From a virus: a stretch of 64,000 bases of DNA. Of this stretch, positions 8,635 to 44,052 are shown piece by piece. Within the stretch, counting starts at the first letter, position 1; each line of letters begins with the position of its first letter. The position numbers and the translations under genes are program-made. Under the pieces are notes generated by a model. That model worked only from the letters and a program-made list of their open reading frames with translations. It searched no databases and was not told where the DNA came from. The DNA is taken from UHGV virus genome UHGV-1370579, one strand, 5' to 3'.

Positions 8635-8642
8635 ATTTCTGC

Positions 8643-8719
8643 ATTCCTAGAGTGTTACTGGACAGCATGTCGGTCTCCAAAACCGTACGGTCTAGGTTCG
8701 AGTCCTAGTAGGTTTGCCA
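8643..8719 (+). tRNA. tRNA-Trp(CCA)-like (weak acceptor stem)
   Basis: anticodon stem tcggt/accgt with loop ctccaaa, T-arm ctagg-ttcgagt-cctag, CCA; acceptor attccta/taggttt has two U-U mismatches. Confidence 0.5.
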
Positions 8720-9256: not shown

Positions 9257-9775
9257 GTGCATACAAAAGTTTTTGATAGTTTGGTAAAGAAAGGCGTTGT
9301 TACTAATGAGCCCTTCTATATAACCGCAGAACTAATCCAAAGATTTATGGAAGAATATATAAATCTTTCAGGAACCAATGGTAATACCAAAAAGAATACG
9401 AATACTATGTATTCGAGAAAACTTGCTGCACTTTCCTTTATAAAGTTTAAGCAGGAAAATAAACTTCCTATTTCTGAAGGTTTTGTATACTGTATTAGTA
9501 ACCCTGCATGGAAAAATCAGTATAAAATAGGTATGAGTCAAAATCCAAAAGAGAGATTAGCTCAATATCAGACTTATTCCCCTTATAGGGATTATAAGTT
9601 AGAGCATTGGTCTTTTTGGTTTGACAAACGAAAAGGTGAAAAACTAATTCACCAGTATTTCAAAGATTTAAAAGAACATGAGTGGTTTAGTATAAATTCT
9701 AGGGATCTTAGTAAATATCTAGAACGTATTAACTCTAGTTCTGACTTATATGGTTCCTTAGCTCTAATTGGTTAG
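9257..9775 (+). CDS. T5orf172-domain (GIY-YIG superfamily) protein, putative homing-endonuclease-like
   Basis: GFVYCISNPAWKNQYKIGMSQNPKERLAQYQTYSP...EWF matches the T5orf172/MUG113 motif; GTG start; 3' end overlaps tRNA-Asn. Confidence 0.7.
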   Translation: MHTKVFDSLVKKGVVTNEPFYITAELIQRFMEEYINLSGTNGNTKKNTNTMYSRKLAALSFIKFKQENKLPISEGFVYCISNPAWKNQYKIGMSQNPKERLAQYQTYSPYRDYKLEHWSFWFDKRKGEKLIHQYFKDLKEHEWFSINSRDLSKYLERINSSSDLYGSLALIG

Positions 9776-32484: not shown

Positions 32485-32916
32485 GATCCTGCATGTCTCG
32501 GTGCACAATACCTGTACCGAGACTCAAATACAAACTCTCGTTGACAGATAGCTAAATGTATGTTATCATAACTCTATGAGTTAATAGAATTAACCATTTA
32601 GAGTTGCCACACAGAAGGTGTGGTGGTTCAGTAATTTAAAATTACTAACTTGTAGCGGAGGATACGGAGCGACAGGACAAGTTAATAAGTAATTTAATAT
32701 AAATTGCTAGAAACATCACGAGACCTTCTGGCGGGGGCAAAGCTCTATATGAGAACCCTGGGGGATCTTATATTTAAAATAAAAGTAAAACTTTTGACCA
32801 CATAATTTACATTCAAGATGATACACCTGTTGCCGCTCATCTGCTAGGATGGCACAACACTTTCTTCTAGACTCCTAAGTTTCTATGAAAACTCTAGTCA
32901 ACTCAGGCGGTTTTCA

Positions 32917-32977
32917 TATTCCTAGAAACTCTAGCAATAGGCGGTTAATATAGGGCGGTTATAGGGAGGGCGGTTAT
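32917..32977 (+). repeat. 4 direct copies of GGCGGTT(A/T)
   Basis: copies at about 32917, 32940, 32955 and 32969. Confidence 0.7.
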
Positions 32978-33019
32978 TTCTAGGAGACATTTTTTGAAAA
33001 CACATTTCCAGAAATTACT

Positions 33020-33620
33020 GTCGGATTTGCACACTGACAGGAGTTTAAAAACTGGTCGGATTTGCACAAACGCCTAAGTTTTTAGGAACTCTTCCTCTCC
33101 TGAAAATAGCAGCATTATTTCGGGCCGAAGGCCCGTGATTGCCTGAGTTTTTAGAGCCACAAGAATTTTCACTTGTCAAGCTATTTTGCCCCATTTTGCT
33201 AATAAAATTTTACTTTTTCTGCACCTATCTCAAATTTCCCCAAATTATCTCAACTCTTCCCCAAAATCCCCGCAAATCAGGTGCTCCGCACCAATCCTGC
33301 GCCCACATCCTTCTAACCCCAAAATTTCTCTCGCTCTCTCATCTTCTCCTCAAACCTATACAATCACACACCCTCCAATCGAAGTCACAAAAATCTTGTC
33401 GGATTCGCACAAATAAACCCATGTCGGATTTGCACATATTCTAGCTAATTCCACAGGATTGATGCGCAGCATCGGATTGCTGGAGTTTTTAGGAAAATTC
33501 GTTGTCGGATTTGCACACTATAAAAATTTTTCGGGTCGGATTTGCACACTACCAAAAATTGTCGGATTCGCACATACATGCCCACGCGTAACCCATGGGG
33601 GCAAATGTCGGATTTGCACA
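33020..33620 (+). repeat. 8 direct copies of 14-mer GTCGGATT(T/C)GCACA (candidate iterons/protein-binding array)
   Basis: copies at about 33020, 33055, 33398, 33423, 33504, 33535, 33561 and 33607, all same orientation, irregular spacing. Confidence 0.8.
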
Positions 33621-33639
33621 AAAGCGCAGGGCAATTGCC

Positions 33640-33845
33640 CTGCTCGCCTGAATGCGAATGATAATGAGAATCAATCTCATTTAAAAAGTGAAATGCGAAT
33701 GATAATGATTTGCATTTAAGAAAGGGAATGAGAACTATTCAAGAAGTGAAATGAAAATTATTCAGGAAGTGAAACGATTCTCATTTAGAAAGTGGAACGC
33801 AAATGATAATGATTCGCATTTAAGAAGGGAAGTGAGAAACACTGT
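33640..33845 (+). repeat. AT-rich iteron block (AAGTGAAA x5; aatgcgaatgataatga x2 and variants)
   Basis: repeated gaagtgaaatg / gaatgcgaatgataatga units. Confidence 0.65.
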
Positions 33846-33846
33846 T

Positions 33847-33962
33847 ATTTAAGTTATCCACAGACTTATTAACAGCACGATTTGACTTGACAGAATCCTA
33901 GCCATTTTGAAGCGTTATCCACAGACTTATCCCCAGGTTATTCTACTGTATAAATATACAGT
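33847..33962 (+). repeat. left terminal inverted repeat of 4-kb cassette: 23-bp tip with DnaA box (TTATCCACA), second DnaA-box 17-mer, and near-palindrome actgtataaatatacagt
   Basis: the perfect 23-mer at 33847-33869 is the reverse complement of the 23-mer at 37851-37873; a 17-bp direct repeat of the DnaA-box motif recurs at 33914-33930; palindrome at 33945-33962. Confidence 0.8.
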
Positions 33963-34104
33963 ATTCCTATGTAGTGAATAATTCTAATATACGCCTAAAA
34001 CGTCCTGAATCGCATTCTAACGCGTTTAATTTTGGCGGGGATACTAAAACAAATGGGTATTTATCTGGGGGCGTGAAAAACGGGGATCTGCTCCCCGCTT
34101 GTTG

Positions 34105-34299
34105 TCAGTCCGGTAATTGATGCGTGATCTTCTCCTCCTCCCCGTAGGAATCGACCAAATGCTGATAATAACCATCGTGATCATAAATAACGCTATCATA
34201 TTCGCCCCGCTCGACCGCTTGCCGGTTTTCCGGCGTATCGGGCACGTAAAAAACATCAACCATCGTAGTAGTTTTGGTCACAACAATTTTATTGCTCAT
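34105..34299 (-). CDS. hypothetical acidic protein (64 aa)
   Basis: minus-strand ORF; internal ATG with aggag SD chosen as start. Confidence 0.45.
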   Translation of the reverse strand: MSNKIVVTKTTTMVDVFYVPDTPENRQAVERGEYDSVIYDHDGYYQHLVDSYGEEEKITHQLPD

Positions 34300-34529
34300 A
34301 ATAACTCCTAGTAAATATATTTTTGCCAATAGCGGCGAACGTTATCGCCACCAGCGGAATCATTTGTAGCCTCAACATTACCAACGAAAATATATAGTTT
34401 CATAGTGCCATCGCTCCTAGAATGAGAATGATTATTATTACCATTACAAGCCCGTTACTAAATCGTAAACGCTGGGAAACATTCCCAGCGGTATTATTAG
34501 ATTTATGGGATTGCGTTTTACGCCACCAG

Positions 34530-34730
34530 CTATTCACGGTAGACACGCCAGCCGTCTAGCTTCCATTCTTCCCCCTTGCGAATATTGAAAAACCAATCAT
34601 TAAAATTGTAACCATCTTCTGACATGATCACGCCGTTTTCTTTCATGTACAAAAATTCATCGCTAGTAAAATATTGATTACTAACTTTAAAACCTTGTTT
34701 CATTTTTTCTAGTGCTTCATCTTTAGTCAT
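34530..34730 (-). CDS. hypothetical protein (66 aa)
   Basis: minus-strand ORF, overlaps start of downstream gene by 4 nt. Confidence 0.45.
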   Translation of the reverse strand: MTKDEALEKMKQGFKVSNQYFTSDEFLYMKENGVIMSEDGYNFNDWFFNIRKGEEWKLDGWRVYRE

Positions 34731-35071
34731 TGCGCCACCTTTCGAAACGCTGTTTCAATACTTTCAGCGGTTGATTGAATATACGCGCCTTTCATGATCA
34801 GGCGCTCAGTGCATACCTTGCGGAAAATATTAATAAAATCATCTTCATTTTCTGCAATTAATGCCTCACCCATGACCTGAATATCACACGATGCAAAGGT
34901 CAAAAATTGAAACGCTAGTTCACGGGCAACGACCGCATTAATTTTATAATGCGCCTTGCCTTCATAGATATTAATTACGCCTATATAAACTGGTGAAAGC
35001 TGGTTTAAATAGTTTGCTAATAATGCCGGTCGGCAAATAGCAACAAAACGATTGCCCTCATAAATTACCAT
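34727..35071 (-). CDS. hypothetical protein (114 aa)
   Basis: minus-strand ORF in GC-richer cassette. Confidence 0.5.
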   Translation of the reverse strand: MVIYEGNRFVAICRPALLANYLNQLSPVYIGVINIYEGKAHYKINAVVARELAFQFLTFASCDIQVMGEALIAENEDDFINIFRKVCTERLIMKGAYIQSTAESIETAFRKVAQ

Positions 35072-35194
35072 TTGACAGCCTCCCGATCAGGTATCCAGAT
35101 AAAAGCATAAAAATCCCCAGTAAAAGGGGATCATTTTTAAATAAGGTGGCGGTAAAACCGCCAACCATTGCAAGGCTAATAATGATAACGCTTT

Positions 35195-35407
35195 TCATAG
35201 TACCCCACGAAACGCAGCGTAAAAGGTGGCAAAATGTTTAACCGTTTCAGCTATCACATTGCCGCGCTTATCAAATTTCTTTTCTGTAACACGAAAGGCA
35301 TTTTTGTTACGTGCTACATATTCAATTTTACAATCTTCACGCTCAAACGTGTTTACATCCACCAGCTTAAAGCCTTTCGAACGTGCAAGGGAAACGTTGC
35401 GGATCAT
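35195..35407 (-). CDS. hypothetical protein (70 aa)
   Basis: minus-strand ORF; start overlaps stop of upstream small membrane ORF (taaaATGa). Confidence 0.45.
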   Translation of the reverse strand: MIRNVSLARSKGFKLVDVNTFEREDCKIEYVARNKNAFRVTEKKFDKRGNVIAETVKHFATFYAAFRGVL

Positions 35408-35410
35408 TTT

Positions 35411-35560
35411 TATTCTCCTTTACCAGTCATGCAGCCCAGCAGATAAGAAAATGCGGCGATACCCGCGCCGATAATAACGGCGTGAACACCGAAAGCTATT
35501 GCAAACAACGATAAAATGGCGCCCAAGATACCAGCTAAAATAGCCCGAAAAATAACCATT
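35411..35560 (-). CDS. small hydrophobic membrane peptide (49 aa)
   Basis: MVIFRAILAGILGAILSLFAIAFGVHAVIIGAGIAAF; SD aggggagtagtacaaATG on minus strand. Confidence 0.35.
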
Positions 35561-35608
35561 TGTACTACTCCCCTAGTTAGTGGGGCGAAAGTAACGCCCC
35601 GTTATTAA

Positions 35609-35839
35609 TTACATTAAAACAATTTTAGCGGCTTGTTTTTTGGTGCAATGTTCCGCCTTCAGGGTATCCAGCAAAAAGCCAGCCGTTTGCTGATCAATCT
35701 TATCAGCGTTATACAATTCTTGGATGGTGTTATAAGTTTTAGCAATGCCATATTCTTGCACCATTTCGTGAATAATAACGCGGTTAGATACCCAGCCTTG
35801 AGCGGTGAACAGATGACTAGCAGAAGAATAAGCAACCAT
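35609..35839 (-). CDS. hypothetical protein (76 aa)
   Basis: minus-strand ORF. Confidence 0.45.
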   Translation of the reverse strand: MVAYSSASHLFTAQGWVSNRVIIHEMVQEYGIAKTYNTIQELYNADKIDQQTAGFLLDTLKAEHCTKKQAAKIVLM

Positions 35840-35943
35840 TTTAAGCCTCCAATTTTTTGGGAAATTTTCAATCCACCGTTTTGGTGTAAAAGCATTATAA
35901 CAAAAAAGGCCACCATAAAAGGCGACCTTTACAAAACTTTACA

Positions 35944-36438
35944 TTAGACTACTTGTAAGGATTCAATATTGAAACATCGTTTCAATTCGTCATGCAAAAC
36001 AGCGTATTCCTCCCATCGGGTACTATCAGGAATATAAACAAGCTGTTTTAATCGGTTTGCGTATATTACCGCTTTGTTACCAACTATCTCGACGCCACCA
36101 TATTTAATAATTAATTTCATGACGGAATTAATAGGATCGCCGCCGTTTACATATGTGCCGGATTTACTTAATTGATAATGATAAAGGCTTGCATATACAT
36201 TATCATTCTCATACCATTCGCCAGTATCTTCGTCTTCATAGCCATCGCTACCAAAACGAGAAGCATTATCAATAGCCCTTTCGTGAGCTAAAGCGTCCAG
36301 ATCCGTACCAGCAGGAACAAAATATTCCTCGGTATTCCCTTCCCCGCAGTAACCCGTATGACAATCAACCAAAATGATCATATCATGTTTAGCCGTGCTC
36401 ACTTCTCCCAGTGAGAAGCCATATTTTTCTTCTGACAT
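35944..36438 (-). CDS. hypothetical acidic protein (about 164 aa)
   Basis: minus-strand ORF, start MSEEKYGF with SD aggagg. Confidence 0.5.
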   Translation of the reverse strand: MSEEKYGFSLGEVSTAKHDMIILVDCHTGYCGEGNTEEYFVPAGTDLDALAHERAIDNASRFGSDGYEDEDTGEWYENDNVYASLYHYQLSKSGTYVNGGDPINSVMKLIIKYGGVEIVGNKAVIYANRLKQLVYIPDSTRWEEYAVLHDELKRCFNIESLQVV

Positions 36439-36504
36439 AATTAGCCTCCTATTAATTAACAAGGGAATAATAAAGCGGGGAAACAATCCCCGCTAAATTA
36501 GTTA

Positions 36505-37509
36505 TTACTCGCTTTCGGTGCTAGTGGTAAAAGTAGAAATATCAATACCTTTCACCATTTCATCAATCATTTCAGCGATATTAAAACTTTGTACCATTTC
36601 TAACATAGCCGCTTCCATAGCTGCACCTGCCACCGCTTTCGCCTTTTGGTTACTTGGGGCGTACTGGTCAACCGCTACGCTCAGCAGGTTGGCAATCACT
36701 ACTCGACCGATGGGTGTATCAATATAACCTTTAATCATAAACGGTGCTTTTTTAGCCGCTACTTTCGTAATTTGAGTCAGTGCAATTTTACCCGCTTCCA
36801 GTTTTGCAGCGTTTACAACAGCGGATTTATTAGCGGCAACAATATTAGCGATCTTGGTCATGGTGTTTTTTCCTTTATTTTCAGTAGTTTGCGCATTTGC
36901 GCTTGAAGTTTGAGATGGTACAGCCTGTTTTGCTACGTTGTCAACTGGTTTTAGTGTAAATCCAGCATTTGCAACATTTGTTTCACCCCCATACTCTAAA
37001 TAATCGTTAGGGATCAACATGTTACCCGTTGACTTTTCAAAACACAATACGCCAGTTGTTTCGATTGCGTTACTATCAGCACCTTTATAACTGGATGATA
37101 ATTCACGCCAGATACTATTTAATAACGATCCGACACTATCCAATCTGATATTATTTACTTTTGTTGCTGTTACCTGCTCTTTTTCTTGCACGTTATATAA
37201 TCGCGCAATGTAACCACTATGAGACTCACTATAACCAACAATGATAAAATCAATATCAGTCCCCCGACTATTACGGAAAATGTGATAATCACGGTTGAAA
37301 ATTACTAGCGCCCCTGTCTGGTCTAGTAATAGCGTGAAATCATCAACTGAATAATGAGTATCATTATTGTCTAAAATTTCATCGTGAATCTTTTCAATAA
37401 TAGTAGCAGTATGTTGTACACTTGCCGCACTACTACCATCTAGCAGGTTACGCAAACTACCTTTAACAATAGTGGCGTTTGCTGGTACTGCAATTCTTAC
37501 AGTAGACAT
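36505..37509 (-). CDS. hypothetical protein (334 aa), first gene of minus-strand cassette operon
   Basis: minus-strand ORF with SD gagggagacaaagaaATG; Ala/Lys-rich low-complexity C-terminal half. Confidence 0.55.
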   Translation of the reverse strand: MSTVRIAVPANATIVKGSLRNLLDGSSAASVQHTATIIEKIHDEILDNNDTHYSVDDFTLLLDQTGALVIFNRDYHIFRNSRGTDIDFIIVGYSESHSGYIARLYNVQEKEQVTATKVNNIRLDSVGSLLNSIWRELSSSYKGADSNAIETTGVLCFEKSTGNMLIPNDYLEYGGETNVANAGFTLKPVDNVAKQAVPSQTSSANAQTTENKGKNTMTKIANIVAANKSAVVNAAKLEAGKIALTQITKVAAKKAPFMIKGYIDTPIGRVVIANLLSVAVDQYAPSNQKAKAVAGAAMEAAMLEMVQSFNIAEMIDEMVKGIDISTFTTSTESE

Positions 37510-37706
37510 TTCTTTGTCTCCCTCGTTAATCGGTGAGTGAATGATATAGATAATTGTTCGCTAAGGGCAAGAAAAAAGAAAAGGTTTTTTATTCCTTGCC
37601 TTATGCTTGTTTTTATGATAACCGCGCGTTTCCTATTTCTAGCTCTCTGTAATCGTACACAAGGCTTTATTATAACAAGGGCAGCAGTGAGAAAACGCCG
37701 TGTAGC

Positions 37707-37723
37707 GCGTTTTAGGCCGCTTA
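37707..37723. repeat. 17-bp inverted repeat arm (GCGTTTTAGGCCGCTTA); partner at 38679-38695
   Basis: perfect reverse complement pair about 970 bp apart flanking the divergent promoter region and HNH gene. Confidence 0.7.
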
Positions 37724-37761
37724 AATTTGATTGCGGTTGTTACTGCTACCCTTCTACCCTG

Positions 37762-37873
37762 TATATTTATACAGTAGGATAACCTGTATATAAGTCTGTG
37801 TAAAAGTCGCCAAAACGTCGCCTATTGCGTCAAGTTATTTTACAAAATGTATAAGTCTGTGGATAACTTAAAT
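37762..37873 (+). repeat. right terminal inverted repeat of 4-kb cassette (palindrome ctgtatatttatacag; degenerate and perfect DnaA-box 23-mer)
   Basis: the 23-mer at 37851-37873 is the reverse complement of 33847-33869; the palindrome at 37763-37778 is the reverse complement of the left copy. Confidence 0.8.
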
Positions 37874-38056
37874 GATAGTGGTTCTCACTAACTAATTTAT
37901 ACAGTTATTATATAACAAAATATAGTTAGTTGGCTAATAGGATTTTAAAGTGATTATGAGTCTGCTAATTAAACCTGAAAAACTCATTAGCTAGCCTGCT
38001 ATTAATTTTGTTATAATATAATAGAGATTAAACTAATAACATAAGGAAACAATTAA

Positions 38057-38575
38057 ATGCCTAAGTATAAAGATATAGATTATGACCTTTTTAATAGTTA
38101 CTTTTATTATGATGAAACGTCGTTATCGTTTTTACGTTGGCGAGAAGATCACGCCATCGCAGGTGGTTTAAATGGTAATTATTGGCAAGTTGAACTATTA
38201 GACATGGGACAATTCAAAGTACATAGAATTATCTTTTGTATAATGAATGGCGGTATAGATAGCGAGCTAATGATTGACCATATTGATCGTAACACTCGTA
38301 ATAATAACATCTGGAATCTTCGCGCGGTTGATAGTTCGCAGAATAATTATAATCGCACTCCTAGTGAGTATGAAAATTGTAAGCGTGCTAATGGTATCCC
38401 TAAAAACATTTACGTTAATAAAGTTCGCCCCCGTGATAGTTACGGGCGTGACTATTTGACTGCTCAAATTAAGAATCCTATTACTAACAAGCGTGTTAGT
38501 AAGTCTGGTTATGATTTACAAGAGTTATTATTATGGCTTGAAATTAAAAAAGCTGAATTTGGAATTGTCAATTAA
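38057..38575 (+). CDS. HNH_3 + AP2-domain homing endonuclease
   Basis: YYDETSLSFLRWRED...IDHIDRNTRNNNIWNLRAV (HNH_3) and YENCKRANGIPKNIYVNKVRPRDSYGRDYLTAQI (AP2-like); AT-rich relative to surroundings. Confidence 0.75.
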   Translation: MPKYKDIDYDLFNSYFYYDETSLSFLRWREDHAIAGGLNGNYWQVELLDMGQFKVHRIIFCIMNGGIDSELMIDHIDRNTRNNNIWNLRAVDSSQNNYNRTPSEYENCKRANGIPKNIYVNKVRPRDSYGRDYLTAQIKNPITNKRVSKSGYDLQELLLWLEIKKAEFGIVN

Positions 38576-38678
38576 TTTATTTACTAAATTAACTCATTTA
38601 GTCTTGATTTTAAAAAGTCAATGCCTTTTACAACTATTTTTCAATTTTGCTTTTGTTAAACATTTGTTAAATCGAAAA

Positions 38679-38695
38679 TAAGCGGCCTAAAACGC
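38679..38695. repeat. 17-bp inverted repeat arm (TAAGCGGCCTAAAACGC); partner at 37707-37723
   Basis: see partner. Confidence 0.7.
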
Positions 38696-39021
38696 CCTAG
38701 AACGCAATAAAGTTTTTAGCCATCCCATCATAAGGGGATAAGCCGTTTATCGCTGCCACGAGCTTTTTAGATTTTGTCAAGTAGGGGAAAGCAAATATAA
38801 ATGAAAAAATTACTTGCCTATTTGCTTTGTTTTGTGGTATTCGCGCGCCCGTTTCTTTTAATTTTAGGCCGTCACCGCACGCCGTCCGGTGAATTTTGTC
38901 TTTACGTTTCTTTACAAAAATAAGGTTGCGCCATTTTCGGGAATCCCCTATTATTTATCACGTAGGGCGGCAATGACGAACTACACGGCGGGAAGTTTAC
39001 CGCCACGCTCTTTAAAAATTG

Positions 39022-39045
39022 GGTACATCTTAAAGCCTATCGGCG
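39022..39045. repeat. 24-bp perfect inverted repeat arm (GGGTACATCTTAAAGCCTATCGGC); partner at 39288-39311
   Basis: perfect reverse-complement pair bracketing the 67-aa gene at 39077-39280. Confidence 0.8.
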
Positions 39046-39076
39046 GTAAACTTATCTATTATAAGGAATCGACGAT

Positions 39077-39280
39077 ATGAAACAAACTTTATTGATCACT
39101 GGCAAGCCTAGCAAGGCACTGGATAGCGAAACTAAAAAATTGTTGACAATAGCTCAACAATCCGTAAAATACCGATTTGCGCAGTACAAGAAAGGCCGCC
39201 AGCAAGGTTTAGAAATGATCTGGCGCAATATTATGATTGACCTGAAAGAAAATCATAAAAAACTGCAAAAAACTGTTTGA
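39077..39280 (+). CDS. small basic hypothetical protein (67 aa) bracketed by 24-bp inverted repeats
   Basis: ORF with aaggaatcgacgatATG; IR arms 31 bp upstream of the start and 8 bp downstream of the stop. Confidence 0.5.
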   Translation: MKQTLLITGKPSKALDSETKKLLTIAQQSVKYRFAQYKKGRQQGLEMIWRNIMIDLKENHKKLQKTV

Positions 39281-39287
39281 CACCCTA

Positions 39288-39311
39288 GCCGATAGGCTTT
39301 AAGATGTACCC
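39288..39311. repeat. 24-bp perfect inverted repeat arm; partner at 39022-39045
   Basis: see partner. Confidence 0.8.
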
Positions 39312-39512
39312 AGTTCGATGAGAGCGATAACTTGATAAAATTTGACGGTCGGCACTTACCATAATGTGCCCCGCCCCCTAACTGGGATATAGCGGCCTGC
39401 AAGGAGTTCTTTAAATTGATTATAATGGCGAGCGGATTGTTACTTATTACCTGCTATTACTTTTCTAGCAGGTAATGCGGAACAATCCCCTAAATAACTT
39501 GGAGTTTATACT

Positions 39513-39764
39513 ATGAAAAACGTTATTACCGCGCCTAAAATTGGTCAATCCGTTTTCATCCCTTTCGTTACTAAAACGGACGAATTAACCGGAAAAGCCG
39601 AACGTATTAAAGGTGCGGCGCTTATGCCGTTCGATACAATCGACGCGGTATACGCTGAAAATGAACGCAGTAACAACGGCAAGCCCGTTTTTAGCGTTCG
39701 CGTTAAATCCGGCGATGTTGTAAAGGTTGTTCAACGCAACGAAAAATGGGAAGCTGTTTTATAA
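39513..39764 (+). CDS. hypothetical protein (83 aa)
   Basis: ORF with cttggagtttatactATG; followed by hairpin tatatccctc...gggggatata. Confidence 0.5.
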   Translation: MKNVITAPKIGQSVFIPFVTKTDELTGKAERIKGAALMPFDTIDAVYAENERSNNGKPVFSVRVKSGDVVKVVQRNEKWEAVL

Positions 39765-39862
39765 TTTAGTGCTAACTTTATATCCCTCTTATTTCAGGGG
39801 GATATAACGATTAACATTAAGTTAATCTAATCCCTTAAATTAAACTAATAGGAGTTTTTACC

Positions 39863-40270
39863 ATGACTAACGCAAAAACCGCAAAATTCGCATGGAATGA
39901 AGAAAACACTCAGAAAGCTGTTACCATGTACCAGCAGTTAATCAACGAAAACGGTTTAGATTTTGCAAATAGCGACGGCCTGAAAGAGATTGCAAAAGCA
40001 GTAGGCGCGGCCTCCCCCGTATCCGTTCGCTCAAAATTGACCAGTGCAAAAGCCTATCAGAAAAGCGATAAGCCGCGTAAAGTTGGCGGCGGCAGTTCCA
40101 TTCGTAAAGCGCATTATGTGCGTGTTATTGCAAAACATGCGATCGATTCCGGCATTATCAAAGACGCCGATGATCTGGCAAGTCTGGAAAGTGCAAAATT
40201 GGAAACGCTGGACGCCGTGGCGCAACTGTTAGGCGTTGCCGATGAAGTAAAACAAGCCGCAGGTGAATAA
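39863..40270 (+). CDS. A2: A2-like pre-early protein (135 aa)
   Basis: 135 aa equals the recalled size of T5 A2; lies immediately upstream of the A1-like 556-aa gene; conserved pre-early upstream motif aatcccttaaat..ggagtttt. Confidence 0.5.
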   Translation: MTNAKTAKFAWNEENTQKAVTMYQQLINENGLDFANSDGLKEIAKAVGAASPVSVRSKLTSAKAYQKSDKPRKVGGGSSIRKAHYVRVIAKHAIDSGIIKDADDLASLESAKLETLDAVAQLLGVADEVKQAAGE

Positions 40271-40359
40271 TAGTTATATCTTGCCCCTTCTAGCGAGGGG
40301 GCAATAATATAACTGTTTAGCGATAGCTATTTTCTTCCCTTAAATCAGGAGTTTTATAA

Positions 40360-40557
40360 ATGATTTTCTTTCCTACTGAATCTTTAATTCTAGGCTTATT
40401 TATTATGGCGGCCTCATTATTGTTTGCTTATTTTCAAAATGATTTAGATTCATATTATTTTAAACGTAAATCTAAATTAGCAAAGCGTTTGGGCTTACTT
40501 TGTTTTATTGCCGCCGTTGCTTGTGGTGTTAGTTCTAGCCTAGTGCCTTTAAATTAA
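40360..40557 (+). CDS. small membrane protein (65 aa)
   Basis: two TM helices; conserved pre-early upstream motif. Confidence 0.45.
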   Translation: MIFFPTESLILGLFIMAASLLFAYFQNDLDSYYFKRKSKLAKRLGLLCFIAAVACGVSSSLVPLN

Positions 40558-40647
40558 TGTTGCAAATTATAACGCCTATTATTTGAGGCGTTATATTTGG
40601 CAATATTGCCGTTATTAACCTAATCCCTTTAATGGAGTTTTATTACT

Positions 40648-42318
40648 ATGATTATTTCCGCAGAAAAACAAACCGTTATCCTGAAAATGGCCGCTGACTT
40701 TAACTTCTACGGTAAACGCCTGCGCGCCACTAAATTGGAAGTTTGTGACGATATTTCGAAAGCGGTATACGATACTACTAAACACTCCACCGCCATTTGT
40801 GATTGGTTGGAAGCAAATAAACCAGCGAAACCAAAAGCGGCAAAAGTAGCAAAAGCCATTAAAAATGATGAGCGCCCAGAAGCGGCTGGGATTGTTTCTA
40901 GTACGGTGGAGCAATGGGAAGTAAAACAAGGTAAACGCTTTATTATTACATCGATTCAGAATAATACTTTCCCGCATAAAAACTTTTTAGCCTCACTGGA
41001 GCAATTTGCTAAATATATCGGTGCTGATTTGCTTGTTTCTAAGTATATTTATAATAAAAACGGTTTTCAAAATGGGGAAGGTGCGGATGGAATCAAATAT
41101 GATTCCGCGTTCGATAAATATATTTGCAGCAAAAACGTGTTTTTAAATAACCGCCGCTTTGCTTTCATGGCTGAAATTAATGTTTTGCCAACCGCAGATT
41201 ATCCGCTTTCTGGATTCGCCGAGACTGCAACGGCTTTAAATATTGAGGGGCTGGCAATTGGTCACGCTAAAATTACCGCTGAAAGCGTGCCAGCTTTAAA
41301 AGGTGAAGTAGTGCGCCGTATGTATTCAACCGGAACGGCAACGTTAAAAAACTACATTCAGCAGAAAGCAGGACAAAAGGCCGAGGCGCTGCATAACTTC
41401 GGTGCGCTGATTGTCGAGTTCGACGAGGACGGGGAATTTTTTGTTCGCCAGCTTGAAACAATGGACGAAAGCGGGGTGTTTTATGATCTGAACGTTTGCG
41501 CTACTCCTGCCGGATGCTATGAGACATCGGGGCATGTTTTAGGCTTGCAGTATGGCGATATTCACGCCGAAAAATTAGATGAGGAGTGCGCCGCCGCATC
41601 TTGGGGGCATGGTGATACTTATGGGCTAGTAGATATTCTTAAACCAAAATATCAGTTTGTGCATGACGTTCACGATTTTACATCCCGCAATCATCATAAC
41701 CGCGCATCCGGTGTATTCCTAGCTAAACAATACGCCGCCGGACGTGATAAAGTTCTGGATGATCTTATCGATACGGGGCGCGTGCTAGAATCAATGGAAC
41801 GTGATTTTAGTCAAACAATCATTGTTGAATCTAATCACGATTTGGCGCTATCCCGTTGGCTTGATGATCGTAATGCTAACATCAAAGACGATCCAGCAAA
41901 CGCCGAGTTATATCACCGCCTGAATGCCGCTATTTACGGAGCTATTGCAGAAAAAGACGATACTTTCAACGTGCTAGATTATGCGCTGCGCAAGGTTGCA
42001 GGCTGTGAATTTAACGCCATTTTCCTGACCACTGACCAATCTTTCAAGATTGCAGGCATCGAGTGCGGCGTACACGGTCACAACGGCATTAACGGGAGCC
42101 GTGGCAATCCGAAACAGTTTAAGAAATTGGGCAAATTAAACACCGGACACACCCACACCGCCAGCATTTACGGCGGCGTTTATACCGCTGGCGTATCGGG
42201 GAGCCTCGATATGGGTTACAATGTTGGCGCGTCAAGCTGGACGCAAACGCATGTTATTACCTATGCAAACGGTCAGCGTACTTTGATCGACTTTAAGAAC
42301 GGTAAATTCTTTGCGTAA
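40648..42318 (+). CDS. A1: A1-like pre-early protein with metallophosphatase motifs (556 aa)
   Basis: 556 aa equals the recalled size of T5 A1; GDIHAE, GHGDTYG, GVHGHNGINGSRGN and GHTHT phosphoesterase-like motifs in the C-terminal half. Confidence 0.6.
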   Translation: MIISAEKQTVILKMAADFNFYGKRLRATKLEVCDDISKAVYDTTKHSTAICDWLEANKPAKPKAAKVAKAIKNDERPEAAGIVSSTVEQWEVKQGKRFIITSIQNNTFPHKNFLASLEQFAKYIGADLLVSKYIYNKNGFQNGEGADGIKYDSAFDKYICSKNVFLNNRRFAFMAEINVLPTADYPLSGFAETATALNIEGLAIGHAKITAESVPALKGEVVRRMYSTGTATLKNYIQQKAGQKAEALHNFGALIVEFDEDGEFFVRQLETMDESGVFYDLNVCATPAGCYETSGHVLGLQYGDIHAEKLDEECAAASWGHGDTYGLVDILKPKYQFVHDVHDFTSRNHHNRASGVFLAKQYAAGRDKVLDDLIDTGRVLESMERDFSQTIIVESNHDLALSRWLDDRNANIKDDPANAELYHRLNAAIYGAIAEKDDTFNVLDYALRKVAGCEFNAIFLTTDQSFKIAGIECGVHGHNGINGSRGNPKQFKKLGKLNTGHTHTASIYGGVYTAGVSGSLDMGYNVGASSWTQTHVITYANGQRTLIDFKNGKFFA

Positions 42319-42371
42319 TTAATTAATACCCTAGCGGCTTGAAATATAGCCGCTATTACAGGAGTCAAAAA

Positions 42372-42629
42372 ATGAAAGTTACATTACCCAAAACATTGGA
42401 CGAAAAAGTATTCATTTCACCGGATGAAATGGAATCTGATAAAGTTTACAGCTTCGGGCCTATCCTAGCCGCCAAAACTAATACGGATGGTATTATTTCC
42501 GTCGATTCCCGTGATAACGATATTGTCCCTTTTGATGATGATGGCGCTTTTTATGAGTGGCTAAGCGATAATAATTTACCCGTAAATGGTGAATTAACGC
42601 CGTATCAAATGCAAATTATTATCAAGTAA
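42372..42629 (+). CDS. hypothetical protein (about 85 aa)
   Basis: ATG with caggagtcaaaaaATG after hairpin. Confidence 0.45.
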   Translation: MKVTLPKTLDEKVFISPDEMESDKVYSFGPILAAKTNTDGIISVDSRDNDIVPFDDDGAFYEWLSDNNLPVNGELTPYQMQIIIK

Positions 42630-42667
42630 ATTAAACCCCTTATTAAACTAATTGGAGTTTTATAAAT

Positions 42668-43066
42668 ATGAAAAAGCAAAATATTCCATTCGATCGCGCT
42701 CAATCCTCAATTGTTTTAGTTTATTCTAATGGTGAGCGTTATCACGTCGAGGCCGGTCACGTTGTCGATGATTTAATCGAGTTTAACGAGGCGCTACAGA
42801 TCACTACTTTCGCCTATACCACGGGCAAGCTATCAAGCCGCATCAAGGCGAAAGGCGTTTACATTGACACGGTGAAACAAGAAACGATTATCATCGACGC
42901 CGTAAAATCCGGCCTAGCCTTTGCGGTAGTCGCGCCTTGCCCCGCTTGCCTTGATGATCAGCTAATGAGCGCAAAGGTGTATACCTGCGCTGGTATTCGT
43001 TCCAGTGTATCGGGTGAAGATATTACCGTCATCGCTGATGCGCTTGCGTTTGGTCTGGCATTTTAA
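42668..43066 (+). CDS. hypothetical protein (132 aa)
   Basis: conserved pre-early upstream motif ttggagttttataaatATG. Confidence 0.5.
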   Translation: MKKQNIPFDRAQSSIVLVYSNGERYHVEAGHVVDDLIEFNEALQITTFAYTTGKLSSRIKAKGVYIDTVKQETIIIDAVKSGLAFAVVAPCPACLDDQLMSAKVYTCAGIRSSVSGEDITVIADALAFGLAF

Positions 43067-43146
43067 TAGTTAATTTATTATTACCCGCTATTAAATAGCG
43101 GGTAATGCTGAACTAACTTAATCCCTCAAATGGAGAATGCAACAAA

Positions 43147-43881
43147 ATGAATAAATCTATTACTAATTCTTTCCGTACTTTCCCGCATATTTCCCGCGTC
43201 ATGATTTGGGATCTGGACGGCACTATCATTAATTCTTTCCATCGTGTAGCGCCTTGCTTTGATAGTGAGGGCAATTTAGATTTAAATAAGTATAAGAATG
43301 AAGCGTGTAAACATCATTTAATAATGCAGGATTCATTATTACCATTAGTTGAATATATGCGCCAGTGCATGAATGATGTTAATACGTTAAACATTATCTG
43401 CACCGCTCGACTGATGAGCAAGTCGGATTATTATTACCTACGCAAGCAAGGACTGCGAGGGCGTGGGGATAGCAATATCCGCGTATTTTCCCGCGATACA
43501 CTACACAAATATTTTGAAGCTGATAAAGTTAGCGAAATATACCACAGTAAGGACGCAGTTTATAAATCTTATTATTTTGAATTATTTAAACAGTTATATC
43601 CGAACGCTGATTTTACAATGATTGACGATCATAAAGGCGTGCTATCAGCGGCTGCGTCATACGGATTTAAAACGCTGGACGCGCAAGCTATTAACGATAT
43701 TCTATCAATCGGTGTCACATTGATAGGTGAAACCTTTATTGATGAGTCGCTCGATGATGATAATGATTATCAATTCCTAGCCGACCGCCTGCAATTATGT
43801 TGGGAAAGTATGACCGAAGAAGAACGCGCAGAATATAGTTGCAGCCCGCAACAATATATTGAGAAATTAAAAGTTGCCTAA
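43147..43881 (+). CDS. dmp: HAD-family 5'-deoxyribonucleotidase (Dmp-like, 244 aa)
   Basis: MIWDLDGTIINSF HAD motif I; 244 aa equals the recalled size of T5 Dmp; position at the outer end of the pre-early block. Confidence 0.65.
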   Translation: MNKSITNSFRTFPHISRVMIWDLDGTIINSFHRVAPCFDSEGNLDLNKYKNEACKHHLIMQDSLLPLVEYMRQCMNDVNTLNIICTARLMSKSDYYYLRKQGLRGRGDSNIRVFSRDTLHKYFEADKVSEIYHSKDAVYKSYYFELFKQLYPNADFTMIDDHKGVLSAAASYGFKTLDAQAINDILSIGVTLIGETFIDESLDDDNDYQFLADRLQLCWESMTEEERAEYSCSPQQYIEKLKVA

Positions 43882-44052
43882 CAATTAAGATTGAGATTGT
43901 TTCACCTTGCAATTAAAATGGTTGCAGGGTGAAACAGTTAGCATGGTAATAGTAACACAGGGGGATTATTAGACTACTAACTATCCCCAGTCCCACTGAG
44001 CACATCCGCATGTGTAATCTTATGAAATTTCAAGATTTTCAAATTAGCGCTA

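What the first reader, a model, noticed from the sequence alone, without database searches (positions are those of the whole stretch)
33847..37873. 4.0-kb cassette bounded by about 115-bp terminal inverted repeats with perfect 23-bp DnaA-box tips, carrying eight minus-strand genes of unknown function
TTTAAGTTATCCACAGACTTAT(T) at 33847-33869 is the exact reverse complement of 37851-37873. Each end also has a second, partial copy of the DnaA-box 17-mer, and the palindromes actgtataaatatacagt (33945-33962) and ctgtatatttatacag (37763-37778) are reverse complements of one another. Together these form composite TIRs. Between them lie all eight minus-strand ORFs of the region (34105-37509), with the highest GC in the window and no recognisable domains. 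No transposase or recombinase is present. The element could be a non-autonomous mobile or invertible module. Alternatively it is a DnaA-gated regulatory unit for pre-early expression. The palindromes read as back-to-back extended -10 elements (TGnTATAAAT).
Basis: seen in the sequence. Interest (0 to 1): 0.8.

Follow-up and report, generated by a model that had tools for sequence, protein, structure and literature searches.

The report
Known T5 repeat pair, not transposon
The two inverted repeats are the already published DnaA-box repeat pair that brackets the dispensable early-gene block of T5-like phages, not the ends of a mobile element; the new points are that their inner palindrome is a near-perfect host LexA (SOS) site and that the bracketed block lies flipped in two related phage genera.

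Summary
The inverted repeat is real, but it is 132 bp long (33832-33963 and 37757-37888), not about 115 bp. The window is a T5-like phage. These arms are the published IRD'-spacer-IRC' and IRC-spacer-IRD repeats of the first-step-transfer (FST) DNA, whose paired DnaA boxes were described in 1987, 2005 and 2020.

The arms flank homologues of the T5 pre-early genes 011-017. A 2026 preprint shows those genes can be deleted from T5.

The mobile-element reading fails:
- There is no target-site duplication and no transposase.
- The arm has no copy in 5,426 E. coli genomes or 72,556 plasmids.
- The arms sit at the same position in 543 phage records, and no empty site was found.
- Left arms resemble other left arms (88%) much more than their own right arm (70%).

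Two points were not found in the searchable literature:
1. The inner palindrome of each arm matches the LexA/SOS-box consensus (1 and 3 mismatches). It is always the innermost motif, and this holds from Escherichia phages to Vibrio phages.
2. The enclosed operon is inverted, with mirrored gene order, in Sugarlandvirus and Myunavirus. This implies rare recombination between the arms over evolutionary time. No inversion was seen among close relatives.

Most likely the arms are cis-acting platforms that bind host proteins at the borders of the accessory operon. That function is untested.

The parts
33020..33625 (+). Eight copies of GTCGGATTTGCACA (the DRD repeats of the T5 injection-stop region). 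They lie just outside the finding. Each copy contains ATTTGCACA, an 8/9 match to the DnaA box.
   Evidence: family D1. Nomenclature. Correspondence to T5.
33651..33842 (+). DRE/DRC repeats (units of about 104 bp and 35 bp) between the DRD repeats and the left arm. The estimated FST shear point maps to about 33670 here.
   Evidence: D2, D5, D6. Searches give the T5 shear point. Coordinate transfer.
33832..33963 (+). Left arm, equal to IRD'-spacer-IRC' of T5. Motif order: outer motif GTGAGAAACACTGTTATTTAAG; DnaA box pair; TTGACTTGACA; DnaA box pair; a third TTATTC; SOS box.
   Evidence: (92.7% identical to the T5 arm).
33854..33874 (+). Outer DnaA-box pair of the left arm: TTATCCACA (consensus), gac, TTATTAACA (variant).
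33915..33935 (+). Inner DnaA-box pair of the left arm: TTATCCACA (consensus), gac, TTATCCCCA (variant).
33944..33963 (.). SOS (LexA) box-like palindrome TACTGTATAAATATACAGTA. It has 1 mismatch to TACTG(TA)5CAGTA and is the innermost motif of the left arm.
   Evidence: Consensus taken from PMC8072944.
34076..34097 (-). Rho-independent terminator hairpin of the minus-strand operon (CGGGGAGCAGATCCCCG followed by TTTTT on the minus strand). It corresponds to the terminator annotated in T5 at 9275-9296.
34105..34329 (-). 74-aa ORF, homologue of T5.017 (93% identical). Last gene of the operon.
   Evidence: (phrog_6973).
34530..34730 (-). 66-aa ORF. It is absent from T5. Candidate Tad2-like (DUF2829) protein.
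   Evidence: PF11195, E 0.0055, below the cutoff. (PDB 8sme, SPO1 Tad2, E 0.02). (model pLDDT 91.6; top fold hits are Tad2, probability 0.95, TM 0.6).
34727..35071 (-). 114-aa ORF, homologue of the T5 gene at 8300-8644 (96% identical). Function unknown.
   Evidence: (phrog_4379).
35058..35198 (-). 46-aa ORF. It has no T5 homologue but is present in some relatives.
   Evidence: phrog_19184.
35195..35407 (-). 70-aa ORF, 100% identical to the T5 protein annotated as an endonuclease that nicks abasic sites generated by host Ung.
   Evidence: phrog_4227. Function from PMC8201957.
35410..35559 (-). 49-aa hydrophobic ORF, homologue of the two-transmembrane T5.013 (67% identical). T5.013 is toxic to membranes when expressed alone.
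   Evidence: (phrog_5607). Toxicity.
35609..35839 (-). 76-aa ORF, homologue of T5.012 (83% identical).
   Evidence: (phrog_5145).
35944..36486 (-). 180-aa ORF. It is absent from T5. Homologues exist in many relatives, and on the opposite strand in Sugarland and My1.
   Evidence: (phrog_6741).
36505..37509 (-). 334-aa ORF, homologue of T5.011 (DUF7566). First gene of the operon. It is 58% identical to T5 and 91-94% identical to a set of Salmonella phages.
   Evidence: Toxicity of T5 011.
37541..37570 (-). Promoter of the operon (TTGCCC, 18 nt, TATCAT). It aligns with the promoter annotated in T5 at 6411-6489 and lies about 190 bp inside the right arm.
37757..37888 (-). Right arm, equal to IRC-spacer-IRD of T5. 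It has the same motif order as the left arm when read on the minus strand.
   Evidence: (89.4% identical to the T5 arm).
37757..37776 (.). SOS box-like palindrome CCCTGTATATTTATACAGTA. It has 3 mismatches in total and the CTGT-N8-ACAG core is intact. It is the innermost motif of the right arm.
37785..37805 (-). Inner DnaA-box pair of the right arm: TTTTACACA (consensus), gac, TTATATACA (variant).
37858..37866 (-). Outer consensus DnaA box TTATCCACA of the right arm. Its partner box, TTATACATT, is degenerate.
   Evidence: Sequence read.
38057..38575 (+). HNH homing endonuclease (hegG-like) just outside the right arm. It is present in only some relatives and splits repeat regions 1 and 2.

Best explanation
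The window is a T5-like phage (Demerecviridae). It contains one collapsed copy of the terminal repeat, at about 33150-44004.

The two arms are the published IRD'-spacer-IRC' repeat (next to the injection-stop repeats) and IRC-spacer-IRD repeat (between the two pre-early transcription units). They are not the ends of a mobile element. They bracket the accessory, dispensable, host-takeover operon that is homologous to T5 011-017.

Each arm is an ordered array of protein-binding motifs:
- an outer GAGAA..TCATTTAAG motif;
- two pairs of DnaA boxes in 12-bp register;
- an invariant TTGAC;
- a near-consensus LexA (SOS) box at the inner end.

The most likely function is inferred, not shown. Once the FST DNA has entered the cell, host DNA-binding proteins (DnaA, and probably LexA) load onto both arms. 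The arms then act in cis as architectural or boundary elements of the FST DNA. The left arm would work as part of the injection-stop / hold region. Both arms would act as symmetric borders that isolate the accessory operon from the untransferred DNA and from the essential A2-A1 operon.

Because the two borders are mirror images, the enclosed operon works in either orientation. Rare homologous recombination between the arms has flipped it at least twice during the evolution of the family.
For: Identity
- 481 phage records match the region by megablast, the listed ones all T5-like.
- The T5 RefSeq record annotates the FST repeat, the iss region, promoters and terminators at the corresponding places.
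- The arms are 92.7% and 89.4% identical to the T5 arms.
- Davison 2020 describes a 131-bp IRC-spacer-IRD / IRD'-spacer-IRC' pair with eight DnaA boxes in pairs 3 bp apart and a fixed spacer.

Conservation
- 543 records carry the arm; every listed record has two or four places except JLBYU43, Erwinia KEY and two Vibrio phages with one and two records with three.
- In 30 distinct loci the left arm is always on the plus strand and the right arm on the minus strand relative to A2. The inner distance ranges from 1562 to 4105 bp.
- Left-left identity is 0.88 and right-right identity 0.81, against 0.70 for left-right. There is essentially no within-genome excess (0.704 vs 0.695).

Motifs
- All exact DnaA boxes of the 64-kb window are in the arms.
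- The SOS-box match has 1 mismatch (left) and 3 mismatches (right), against 0.01 matches expected.
- In 65 sites from six genera, A2 C3 T4 G5 and C16 A17 never vary. Apart from the two flanking bases at the inner end (TA in most left arms, GG in most right arms), only the central AA/TT varies commonly.
- The LexA box is innermost in Erwinia, Klebsiella, Pectobacterium, Proteus and Vibrio phages as well.

Dispensability and plasticity
- A T5 mutant deleted for hegG-017 is viable but makes small plaques.
- The isolate JLBYU43 lacks about 990 bp that include the right arm.
- Gene content between the arms varies.

Inversion
- In Sugarland and My1 the 011-like and 180-like genes (and the 74-like gene in My1) lie between the arms on the A1 strand. 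Their order along the direction of transcription is the same as in the window.
- On an A1 neighbour-joining tree the orientations read -, +, -, +, which needs at least two flips.

Not mobile
- No hit in the E. coli genomes or the plasmid collection.
- No transposase.
- No target-site duplication.
Against: - No binding or functional experiment exists for any motif. The BF23 paper states that experimental studies are lacking.
- The right arm is dispensable in the laboratory (inferred from the hegG-017 deletion) and in a natural isolate. So a requirement for both arms in the injection stop is unlikely.
- The LexA boxes are about 190 bp or more from any mapped or predicted promoter. That is atypical for SOS operators.
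- One T5-like phage record lists the host E. coli DH5a. From my own knowledge that strain is recA1, which suggests that LexA cleavage cannot be essential.
- The same motifs could be read by the conserved phage proteins A2/A1 rather than by host proteins.
- The inversion rests on 35-53% protein identity. The promoter and 5' leader could not be traced at the DNA level in the inverted genera.
- The A1 tree is a crude six-taxon NJ tree.
Confidence: 0.6

Rival explanations
1. The arms are binding sites for the phage's own conserved pre-early proteins, namely the DNA-binding dimer A2 with or without A1. They would mark where the A1/A2 complex acts to restart DNA transfer or to shut off pre-early transcription. 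On this view the resemblance to host DnaA and LexA sites is secondary.
For: [quoted passage not shown]
- The arm core co-occurs with A1/A2 in every genus sampled.
- A perfect 16-bp palindrome would suit a dimeric binder.
- A2 has no Pfam family, so its specificity is unknown.
Against: - The palindrome stays at 1-3 mismatches from the host LexA consensus, and the boxes stay at exact TTATCCACA, while A2 diverges to 40-41% identity.
- The variation pattern (invariant CTG/CA, free central AA/TT) is the one expected for LexA.
- No A2 binding data are available.
Confidence: 0.2
2. The arms are promoter/operator units. The TATAAAT inside the palindrome and the conserved TTGAC would act as promoter elements repressed by LexA and/or DnaA. 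This would give SOS- or DnaA-gated transcription into or out of the cassette. It corresponds to the first reader's 'DnaA-gated regulatory unit'.
For: - LexA boxes normally overlap promoters; the SOS boxes described in PMC8072944 often overlap the transcription start site.
- Every arm keeps TTGAC(A/G) and TATAAAT/TATATTT.
- A1-driven host DNA destruction could plausibly trigger LexA cleavage, which would provide a timer.
Against: - TTGACA and the TATAAA are about 55 nt apart.
- TG abuts TATAAA without the spacer base, and the T at -7 is missing.
- The scan does not call the palindrome as a -10 element; within the arms it lists only two minimum-score (9 of 12) sites, at 33869-33896 and 37804-37776.
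- The promoter upstream of 011 lies about 190 bp downstream of the right arm.
- A promoter in the left arm would drive antisense transcription into a terminator-capped operon end.
Confidence: 0.12
3. The segment is a non-autonomous transposable cassette whose terminal inverted repeats are mobilised in trans.
For: - There are inverted repeats with a perfect 23-bp stretch.
- The enclosed genes are accessory and variable.
- An HNH endonuclease lies next to one arm.
Against: - There is no target-site duplication, and the repeat continues beyond the supposed tips.
- There is no transposase.
- No copy of the arm exists in 5,426 E. coli genomes or 72,556 plasmids.
- The arm positions are orthologous in 543 records.
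- The arms are paralogous at 70% but orthologous at 81-88%.
- No empty site was found. JLBYU43 lost one arm but kept the genes.
- Gene-level mosaicism occurs inside the segment rather than as whole-unit replacement.
Confidence: 0.02
4. The segment is a programmed invertible switch that flips at appreciable frequency within a phage population and changes which genes are expressed.
For: - Both orientations of the operon exist in the family.
- The two borders are mirror images, so both orientations have the same context.
Against: - No invertase or recombinase is in or next to the segment.
- All 28 Tequintavirus/Epseptimavirus-type loci, and also Erwinia phage KEY, share one orientation.
- A synthetic inverted junction reaches 80% coverage in 0 of 593 records. 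The native right junction reaches it in only 12 records, so sensitivity is limited.
- The promoter lies inside the segment and moves with it, so flipping would not switch expression.
Confidence: 0.03

Closest known systems
IRC-spacer-IRD / IRD'-spacer-IRC' inverted repeats of the bacteriophage T5 first-step-transfer region. According to Davison 2020 (bioRxiv 10.1101/866236) these were described by Heusterspreute 1987 and Wang 2005 and analysed further by Davison 2015 and 2020.
   Same: It is the same element:
- the same position in the terminal repeat;
- about 131-132 bp;
- 89-93% identical to the T5 arms;
- DnaA boxes in pairs 3 bp apart with fixed internal spacing;
- a variable coding region between the arms;
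- the left arm adjoining the DRE/DRD injection-stop repeats.
   Different: Nothing essential differs. This genome has seven recognisable boxes, four of them strict consensus. It has an HNH gene beside the right arm, as T5 does. Its 011 allele matches one found in Salmonella phages. The published descriptions I could read do not mention a LexA box. They treat the oppositely oriented genes of the type 2/3 phages as unrelated replacements.
LexA (SOS) operators of Gammaproteobacteria, consensus TACTG(TA)5CAGTA
   Same: A 20-bp palindrome with 1 mismatch (left arm) or 3 mismatches (right arm). CTGT-N8-ACAG is intact. The conservation pattern is the one expected of LexA sites.
   Different: The site does not overlap a promoter; the nearest is about 190 bp away. 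It sits in a virulent phage, is paired with DnaA boxes, and is present at both borders of an operon. Binding has not been tested.
Chromosomal DnaA-box clusters (oriC, datA, DARS) and DnaA-box transcriptional roadblocks (the roadblocks are recalled from my own knowledge of Schaefer and Messer's work on asnC)
   Same: Clustered high-affinity TTATCCACA boxes with fixed phasing. They are oriented so that transcription leaving the operon in either direction meets them in the same orientation.
   Different: No DNA-unwinding element or replication role is evident. According to the literature the T5 origins lie near the centre of the genome. The roadblock function is an analogy only.
PeSL-type repeated regulatory cassettes that flank hyperplastic early regions of T4-type phages (Arbiol et al. 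2010, recalled from my own knowledge)
   Same: Conserved non-coding repeats border a hypervariable set of small early, host-takeover genes. They offer homology for recombination.
   Different: PeSLs are direct repeats that combine a promoter and a stem-loop, and they are scattered between many genes. Here there are just two inverted copies at fixed borders, carrying host-factor sites. Gene-level mosaic breakpoints also occur inside the segment.
Transposon or MITE terminal inverted repeats, and Hin/Gin-type invertible segments
   Same: Inverted repeats flank a gene block. Both orientations of the block exist in nature.
   Different: There is no transposase or invertase, no target-site duplication, no dispersed copies and no polymorphism among close relatives. 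The arms are four to five times longer than hix/gix sites.

Membership tests
T5-type IRC/IRD inverted repeat pair of the FST DNA | A pair of inverted repeats of about 131 bp inside the terminal repeat. One adjoins the iss repeats and the other lies between the two pre-early transcription units. | tested here: met
   The arms are at 33832-33963 and 37757-37888. The T5 counterparts in NC_005859 are at 9411-9541 and 6098-6228. Synteny with dmp-A1-A2, hegG and 011-017 is preserved.
T5-type IRC/IRD inverted repeat pair of the FST DNA | Sequence homology to the T5 arms. | tested here: met
   92.7% (left arm) and 89.4% (right arm) over 142-151 nt. Alignment shown.
T5-type IRC/IRD inverted repeat pair of the FST DNA | DnaA / DnaA* boxes arranged in pairs separated by 3 bp, two pairs per arm. 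| tested here: met
   Left arm: 33854 + 33866 and 33915 + 33927. Right arm: 37797 + 37785, and 37858 with a degenerate partner. That gives seven boxes within 2 mismatches, four of them strict consensus.
T5-type IRC/IRD inverted repeat pair of the FST DNA | Constant internal spacing (a 52-bp 'spacer') between the two halves of each arm. | tested here: met
   The 17-mer copies are 61 bp apart, start to start, in both arms (D16, D19). Only four of the 60 aligned arms need an indel.
T5-type IRC/IRD inverted repeat pair of the FST DNA | Acts as (part of) the injection stop signal. | not testable with these tools
   This is only a published hypothesis. The right arm appears dispensable.
Transposable element with terminal inverted repeats | Target-site duplication flanking the repeats. 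| tested here: not met
The flanks of the true repeat ends (33823-33830 agaaggga, 37890-37897 aactaatt) do not match.
Transposable element with terminal inverted repeats | A transposase, or dispersed copies mobilised in trans. | tested here: not met
   No transposase family was found. No arm copies occur in the E. coli genomes or the plasmids. Copies occur only at the orthologous phage loci.
Transposable element with terminal inverted repeats | Presence/absence polymorphism with an empty site. | tested here: not met
   30 loci all carry genes between the two arms. The only one-arm genome examined in detail, JLBYU43, keeps the genes.
Site-specific invertible DNA switch | A dedicated recombinase in or beside the segment. 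| tested here: not met
   The neighbouring gene is an HNH endonuclease, not an invertase.
Site-specific invertible DNA switch | Both orientations are found among close relatives or within a population. | tested here: not met
   One orientation is seen in all 28 Tequintavirus/Epseptimavirus-type loci and in Erwinia phage KEY. 0 of 593 records carry the inverted junction. The opposite orientation appears only in other genera. Within-population data cannot be obtained here.
LexA (SOS) operator | A palindrome matching CTGT-N8-ACAG / TACTG(TA)5CAGTA. | tested here: met
   1 and 3 mismatches, against 0.01 matches expected. 28/30 left arms and 25/30 right arms keep CTGT-N8-ACAG.
LexA (SOS) operator | Overlaps the promoter or transcription start that it represses. 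| tested here: not met
   The nearest annotated or predicted promoters are about 190 bp away (011) and about 250 bp away (HNH).
LexA (SOS) operator | LexA binding and SOS-dependent derepression. | not testable with these tools
   This needs EMSA, ChIP and expression assays.
DnaA-box cluster (oriC / datA / DARS type) | Clustered consensus 9-mers TTWTNCACA. | tested here: met
   4 of the 5 matches in 64 kb, and all 3 exact TTATCCACA boxes, lie in the arms. Shuffled windows give a mean of 7.9 matches spread at random.
DnaA-box cluster (oriC / datA / DARS type) | Origin function, or titration / reactivation of DnaA. | not testable with these tools
   According to the literature the T5 origins are near mid-genome.

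The most novel reading that the evidence does not exclude
The arms are composite docking sites for two host proteins, DnaA and the SOS repressor LexA, and these sites are conserved across the Demerecviridae. T5-like virulent phages would then place a near-consensus LexA box, always innermost, at both borders of the accessory pre-early operon and right next to the injection-stop repeats. LexA occupancy would form part of how FST DNA is held, insulated or timed. Loss of LexA occupancy could follow once A1 destroys the host chromosome. The mirror symmetry of the borders would be what allows the operon to be flipped by recombination between the arms. No link between LexA and T5 or the Demerecviridae was found in the searchable library.
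Probability: 0.35. Interest if true: 0.6.

Novelty: already known. Interest (0 to 1): 0.3.

Why it matters
How T5 stops DNA entry after 8% of its genome, and how it restarts, has been an open question for more than 50 years. The repeat-rich region that contains the left arm is the prime candidate for the stop signal, yet no motif in it has been tested.

The finding itself rediscovers a published structure and so adds nothing to that question. Two by-products turn a vague 'repeats and palindromes' description into specific experiments:
- A LexA box conserved across the family sits next to the DnaA boxes. This points to tests in lexA and dnaA host mutants, box point mutants, and ChIP on FST DNA.
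- The bracketed operon lies flipped in two genera. This argues that the arms work as symmetric borders rather than as directional promoter elements.

A candidate Tad2-like protein in the cassette fits the view that this block holds exchangeable host-takeover and anti-defence genes.

Tried and rejected
- Scan of IMG/VR with the 17-mer: 119 or more contigs matched, most not of T5-like genome size and not examined. It was not used. Loci were collected through the A2 protein instead.
- Concerted evolution or gene conversion between the arms: rejected. Within-genome left-right identity is 0.704 against 0.695 between genomes. The permutation P values of 0.001-0.01 reflect a negligible effect and phylogenetic structure.
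- Extended -10 / promoter reading of the palindrome: rejected.
- A small RNA driven from the left arm towards 34100: rejected by reading the sequence. The hairpin at 34081-34097 has a proper T-run only on the minus strand. Rfam found nothing in 32500-39500.
- Tracing the 011 promoter and 5' leader into Sugarland and My1 as extra support for the inversion: no detectable DNA similarity, so inconclusive.
- Synthetic inverted-junction search with a native control: no inverted relative was found. Only 12 records cover the native right junction, so sensitivity is limited.
- PADLOC and PDB sequence searches for the 334-aa and 180-aa proteins: nothing significant.
- Pfam for A2 and A1: no family, so A2 specificity could not be inferred.
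- Davison's 2015 review (PMC4743489) is not held. The Heusterspreute 1987 and Wang 2005 papers, in subscription journals, were not looked up. An earlier mention of a LexA box therefore cannot be excluded.
- 'Highest GC in the window': not true.

Full report

Yes in its core, with corrections.
- The 23-mer at 33847-33869 is the exact reverse complement of 37851-37873. About 3e-5 such pairs are expected by chance in 64 kb.
- The repeat does not stop there. 33831-33869 pairs with 37851-37889 (39 nt, 92%). 33885-33961 pairs with 37759-37835 (77 nt, 77%).
- The arms are therefore about 132 bp: 33832-33963 and 37757-37888. The 23-mer is not a terminal tip.
- The 17-mer GTTATCCACAGACTTAT occurs four times within 3 mismatches, all in the arms, against 0.14 expected.
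- All three exact TTATCCACA boxes of the window lie in the arms, as do 4 of its 5 TTWTNCACA matches.
- The right palindrome is at 37759-37774, 4 bp off the stated coordinates.
- Nine, not eight, minus-strand ORFs have PHROG families.
- The GC content of the segment (0.385-0.405) is not the window maximum.
- The proposed flanking direct repeats are part of the inverted repeat itself.

**2. What the locus is**

- Megablast of 33000-39000 hits 481 phage records; the listed ones are T5-like phages.
- Against T5 RefSeq, the window is collinear in reverse orientation from T5 position 49 (window 43956) to beyond position 13000.
- The window therefore holds one collapsed copy of the 10.2-kb terminal repeat, at roughly 33150-44004.
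- This repeat is the first-step-transfer (FST) DNA, which enters the cell first and carries the pre-early genes.
- A1 is at 40648-42318 and A2 at 39863-40270, both on the plus strand.
- The hegG-like HNH gene is at 38057-38575. The minus-strand operon at 34105-37509 corresponds to T5 011-017.
- The repeats upstream of the left arm are the DRD and DRE repeats of the annotated injection stop signal: eight copies of GTCGGATTTGCACA at 33020-33625 and 104-bp units at 33651-33842.

**3. The inverted repeat is already described**

- Davison's 2020 preprint summarises Heusterspreute 1987 and Wang 2005. It describes a 131-bp IRC-spacer-IRD in 'repeat region 2' and its inverted partner IRD'-spacer-IRC' in 'repeat region 3', next to the iss.
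- It reports eight DnaA or near-DnaA boxes in pairs 3 bp apart, a constant 52-bp spacer, conservation in 25 T5-like phages, and a highly variable coding region and distance between the two copies.
- The window's arms are 92.7% and 89.4% identical to the T5 arms. They show the same box pairs and the same 61-bp register.
- Davison proposes that membrane-bound DnaA binds these boxes and stops DNA entry.
- A 2023 paper on BF23 notes that experimental studies of these sites are lacking. A 2026 paper repeats the same description.

**4. Comparative anatomy**

The arm alone finds 543 phage records. Every listed record has two places, or four when both terminal repeats were assembled, apart from JLBYU43, Erwinia KEY and two Vibrio phages (one place each) and two records with three. 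I collected 30 distinct loci, oriented by A2.
- The left arm is always on the plus strand and the right arm on the minus strand. The inner distance ranges from 1562 to 4105 bp.
- Left arms are 88% identical to each other and right arms 81%. Left and right arms are only 70% identical, and there is practically no excess within a genome (0.704 vs 0.695).
- The arms are therefore two orthologous loci held similar by selection on shared motifs. They are not copies homogenised by transposition or gene conversion.
- The blocks conserved in all 60 arms are:
  - GTGAGAAnCACTnTnATTTAAG followed by the first DnaA box;
  - TTGAC;
  - ACAGACTTATCCACAGGTTATCCTACTGTATAAATATACAG.

**5. Tests of mobility**

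- There is no target-site duplication at the claimed ends or at the true ends.
- No transposase or recombinase family is present.
- The arm has no match in 5,426 complete E. coli genomes or in 72,556 plasmids.
- No empty site was found. The only one-arm genome examined in detail, JLBYU43, has lost about 990 bp (right arm, HNH gene and adjacent repeats) but keeps the operon.
- Variation between the arms is gene by gene. The 180-aa, 66-aa and 46-aa genes come and go. The 011 allele is 58% or 81-94% identical depending on the relative, while neighbouring genes stay at 90-100%. The segment is therefore not exchanged as a unit.

**6. The segment has been flipped in evolution**

All loci below are oriented with A2 and A1 on the plus strand.
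- The 011-like gene is on the minus strand, next to the A2-proximal arm, in the window, T5, Erwinia phage KEY and a Proteus Novosibvirus.
- In Klebsiella phage Sugarland and Pectobacterium phage My1 the 011-like gene is on the plus strand next to the iss-proximal arm (35% identity, E 1e-33; 53% identity, E 1e-34).
- In both it is followed, on the same strand, by the 180-like gene, and in My1 also by the 74-like gene. The order along the direction of transcription is the same as in the window.
- Davison noted the oppositely read ORFs in these 'type 2/3' phages but treated them as unrelated replacements.
- On a crude A1 neighbour-joining tree the orientations alternate: KEY -, My1 +, T5/window -, Sugarland +. 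This needs at least two flips or module exchanges.
- I infer that recombination between the arms is the cause. The best crossover candidates are the two best-conserved blocks, each about 40 nt.
- There is no sign of flipping among close relatives. All 28 Tequintavirus/Epseptimavirus-type loci, and also KEY, share one orientation.
- A synthetic inverted junction reaches 80% coverage in 0 of 593 matching records. The native right junction does so in only 12 records, so this test has limited power.

**7. The palindrome is an SOS box, not a -10 pair**

- 33944-33963 reads TACTGTATAAATATACAGTA. It differs at one position from the LexA consensus TACTGTATATATATACAGTA (consensus as used in PMC8072944).
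- The right copy has three mismatches, two of them in the flanking TA. Only 0.01 such matches are expected per window.
- I compared 65 sites from the 30 loci plus My1, Proteus and Vibrio phages. Positions A2 C3 T4 G5 and C16 A17 never vary. Apart from the two flanking bases at the inner end (TA in most left arms, GG in most right arms), the only common variation is AA/TT at the two central positions. That is the tolerance expected of LexA.
- The box is always the innermost motif of the arm, 12 bp after a DnaA box. This holds in Erwinia, Klebsiella, Pectobacterium, Proteus and Vibrio phages.
- In contrast, TG abuts TATAAA without the spacer base of an extended -10. The scan does not call the palindrome as a -10 element.
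- The promoter annotated upstream of 011 in the T5 record aligns to 37541-37570, about 190 bp away.
- Davison's preprint and the 2026 T5 preprint contain no mention of LexA or SOS. Four library searches found no paper linking LexA to T5-like phages.
- The older subscription papers could not be read, so prior mention cannot be excluded.

**8. The genes**

- The operon encodes a DUF7566 protein (011; toxic and nucleoid-disrupting in T5).
- It also encodes homologues of 012, of the two-transmembrane toxic 013, of the Ung-dependent AP nickase (100% identical to T5), of the 114-aa protein and of 017.
- Three genes are absent from T5.
- One of these, the 66-aa protein, gives three weak but concordant pointers to Tad2, the Thoeris anti-defence sponge:
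  - Pfam PF11195, E 0.0055, below the cutoff;
  - PDB 8sme, E 0.02;
  - a pLDDT 91.6 model whose top two fold matches are SPO1 Tad2, probability 0.95 and TM 0.6.
- A T5 mutant lacking hegG through 017 is viable with small plaques. That interval must include IRC-spacer-IRD. So the cassette and, by inference, the right arm are dispensable in the laboratory.

**9. How it most likely works**

Shown:
- ordered, deeply conserved arrays of DnaA-type and LexA-type sites sit at both borders of an accessory operon;
- the left array is next to the point where DNA entry pauses;
- the two borders are mirror images;
- the operon occurs in either orientation;
- the arms are not mobile.

Inferred:
- host DnaA and LexA (rival: phage A2/A1) load on the arms once the FST DNA is inside the cell;
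- the arms then act in cis as architectural or boundary elements;
- the left arm contributes to the hold at the iss;
- both arms isolate the operon, whose transcription otherwise runs towards either the untransferred DNA or the essential A2-A1 operon.

RNA polymerase leaving the operon in either orientation meets the same series: terminator, LexA box, then DnaA boxes.

I rate the identity of the element and the 'not mobile' conclusion as near certain. I rate host-factor binding as likely. The specific role (pause versus insulator versus timer) is open. A strict requirement for LexA cleavage is unlikely. One T5-like phage record lists the host E. coli DH5a; that this strain is recA1 comes from my own knowledge.

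**10. Verdict**

The finding rediscovers a published feature of T5-like phages and misreads it as a transposon-like cassette. It merits a low score as a discovery. The LexA-box reading and the evolutionary inversion are modest additions that can be tested directly.

Noticed in passing
window 34530-34730 (minus strand): A 66-aa pre-early ORF that is absent from T5 and found in only a few relatives. It gives three weak but concordant hits to Tad2, the Thoeris anti-defence sponge (DUF2829): Pfam E 0.0055 (below the cutoff), PDB 8sme E 0.02, and an AlphaFold model (pLDDT 91.6) whose top fold hits are SPO1 Tad2 (probability 0.95, TM 0.6).
   Followed up: yes
window 33020-33625: Each of the eight DRD repeats (GTCGGATTTGCACA) of the injection-stop region contains ATTTGCACA. 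This is an 8/9 match to the DnaA box TTWTNCACA, on the same strand as the left-arm boxes. Right arms of several relatives carry TTTTGCACA at a homologous box. The iss region may therefore hold many more weak DnaA sites than the eight counted in the literature.
   Followed up: partly
window about 33150-44004: The window contains a single copy of the T5-type terminal repeat with other DNA on both sides; the left flank (down to 30411) aligns with T5's unique region, the DNA beyond 44004 was not examined. T5 position 49 maps to 43956 and the T5 LTR end to about 33150. The source assembly is therefore circularly permuted with the two terminal repeats collapsed. In the virion there would be four arms, not two.
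   Followed up: partly
L121 (Escherichia phage JLBYU43) 11900-11930, compared with window 37699-38688: A natural deletion of about 990 bp removes the right arm, the HNH gene and adjacent repeats, yet the phage is a viable isolate. The junction lies at the AAAACGC-containing repeat.
   Followed up: yes
window 33993-34014, 37703-37732, 38670-38706: Three copies of a GCCTAAAACG(C/T)CCT..GAA.CGCA motif. Two lie just inside the two arms and one lies beyond the HNH gene; these probably correspond to the IRB / IRB' repeats of Wang and Davison. Similarity between the arms therefore continues weakly, with indels, beyond the SOS box. The function is unknown.
   Followed up: no
window 36505-37509, compared with the arms and A2: The genome is a mosaic. 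The 011-like gene is 91-94% identical to a set of Salmonella phages (PMBT27, S116, KKP_3831) but only 58% identical to T5 and chee24. The left arm (97% to chee24/EC100) and A2 (99% to T5) are of the T5 type. The breakpoints lie inside the arm-bounded segment.
   Followed up: partly
L163 (Proteus phage VTCCBPA139) 6562 and 10535; L165 (Vibrio phage SJ1) 9001-9049: Distant Demerecviridae keep the DnaA-box + SOS-box core (TTATCCACAG..TTAT..TACTGTATAAATAAACAGTA). In the Proteus phage the long inverted repeat is no longer detectable by the repeat search; the Vibrio phage was not searched for one. In the Proteus phage an SOS-like box lies on each side of the 011-containing block.
   Followed up: partly
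L001 (T5 RefSeq NC_005859) 8086-8298: RefSeq attaches the product name 'endonuclease nicking abasic sites generated by host Ung' to locus tag T5.014. The papers call this protein T5.015 / gp015. Numbering differs between annotations, so care is needed when comparing gene numbers.
   Followed up: no
window 33623-33643: The major single-strand interruption annotated in T5 (9748-9749) maps to about 33624. This is at a GCGC directly after the last DRD repeat and next to a GC-rich hairpin (GCAGGGCAATTGCCCTGC).
   Followed up: no
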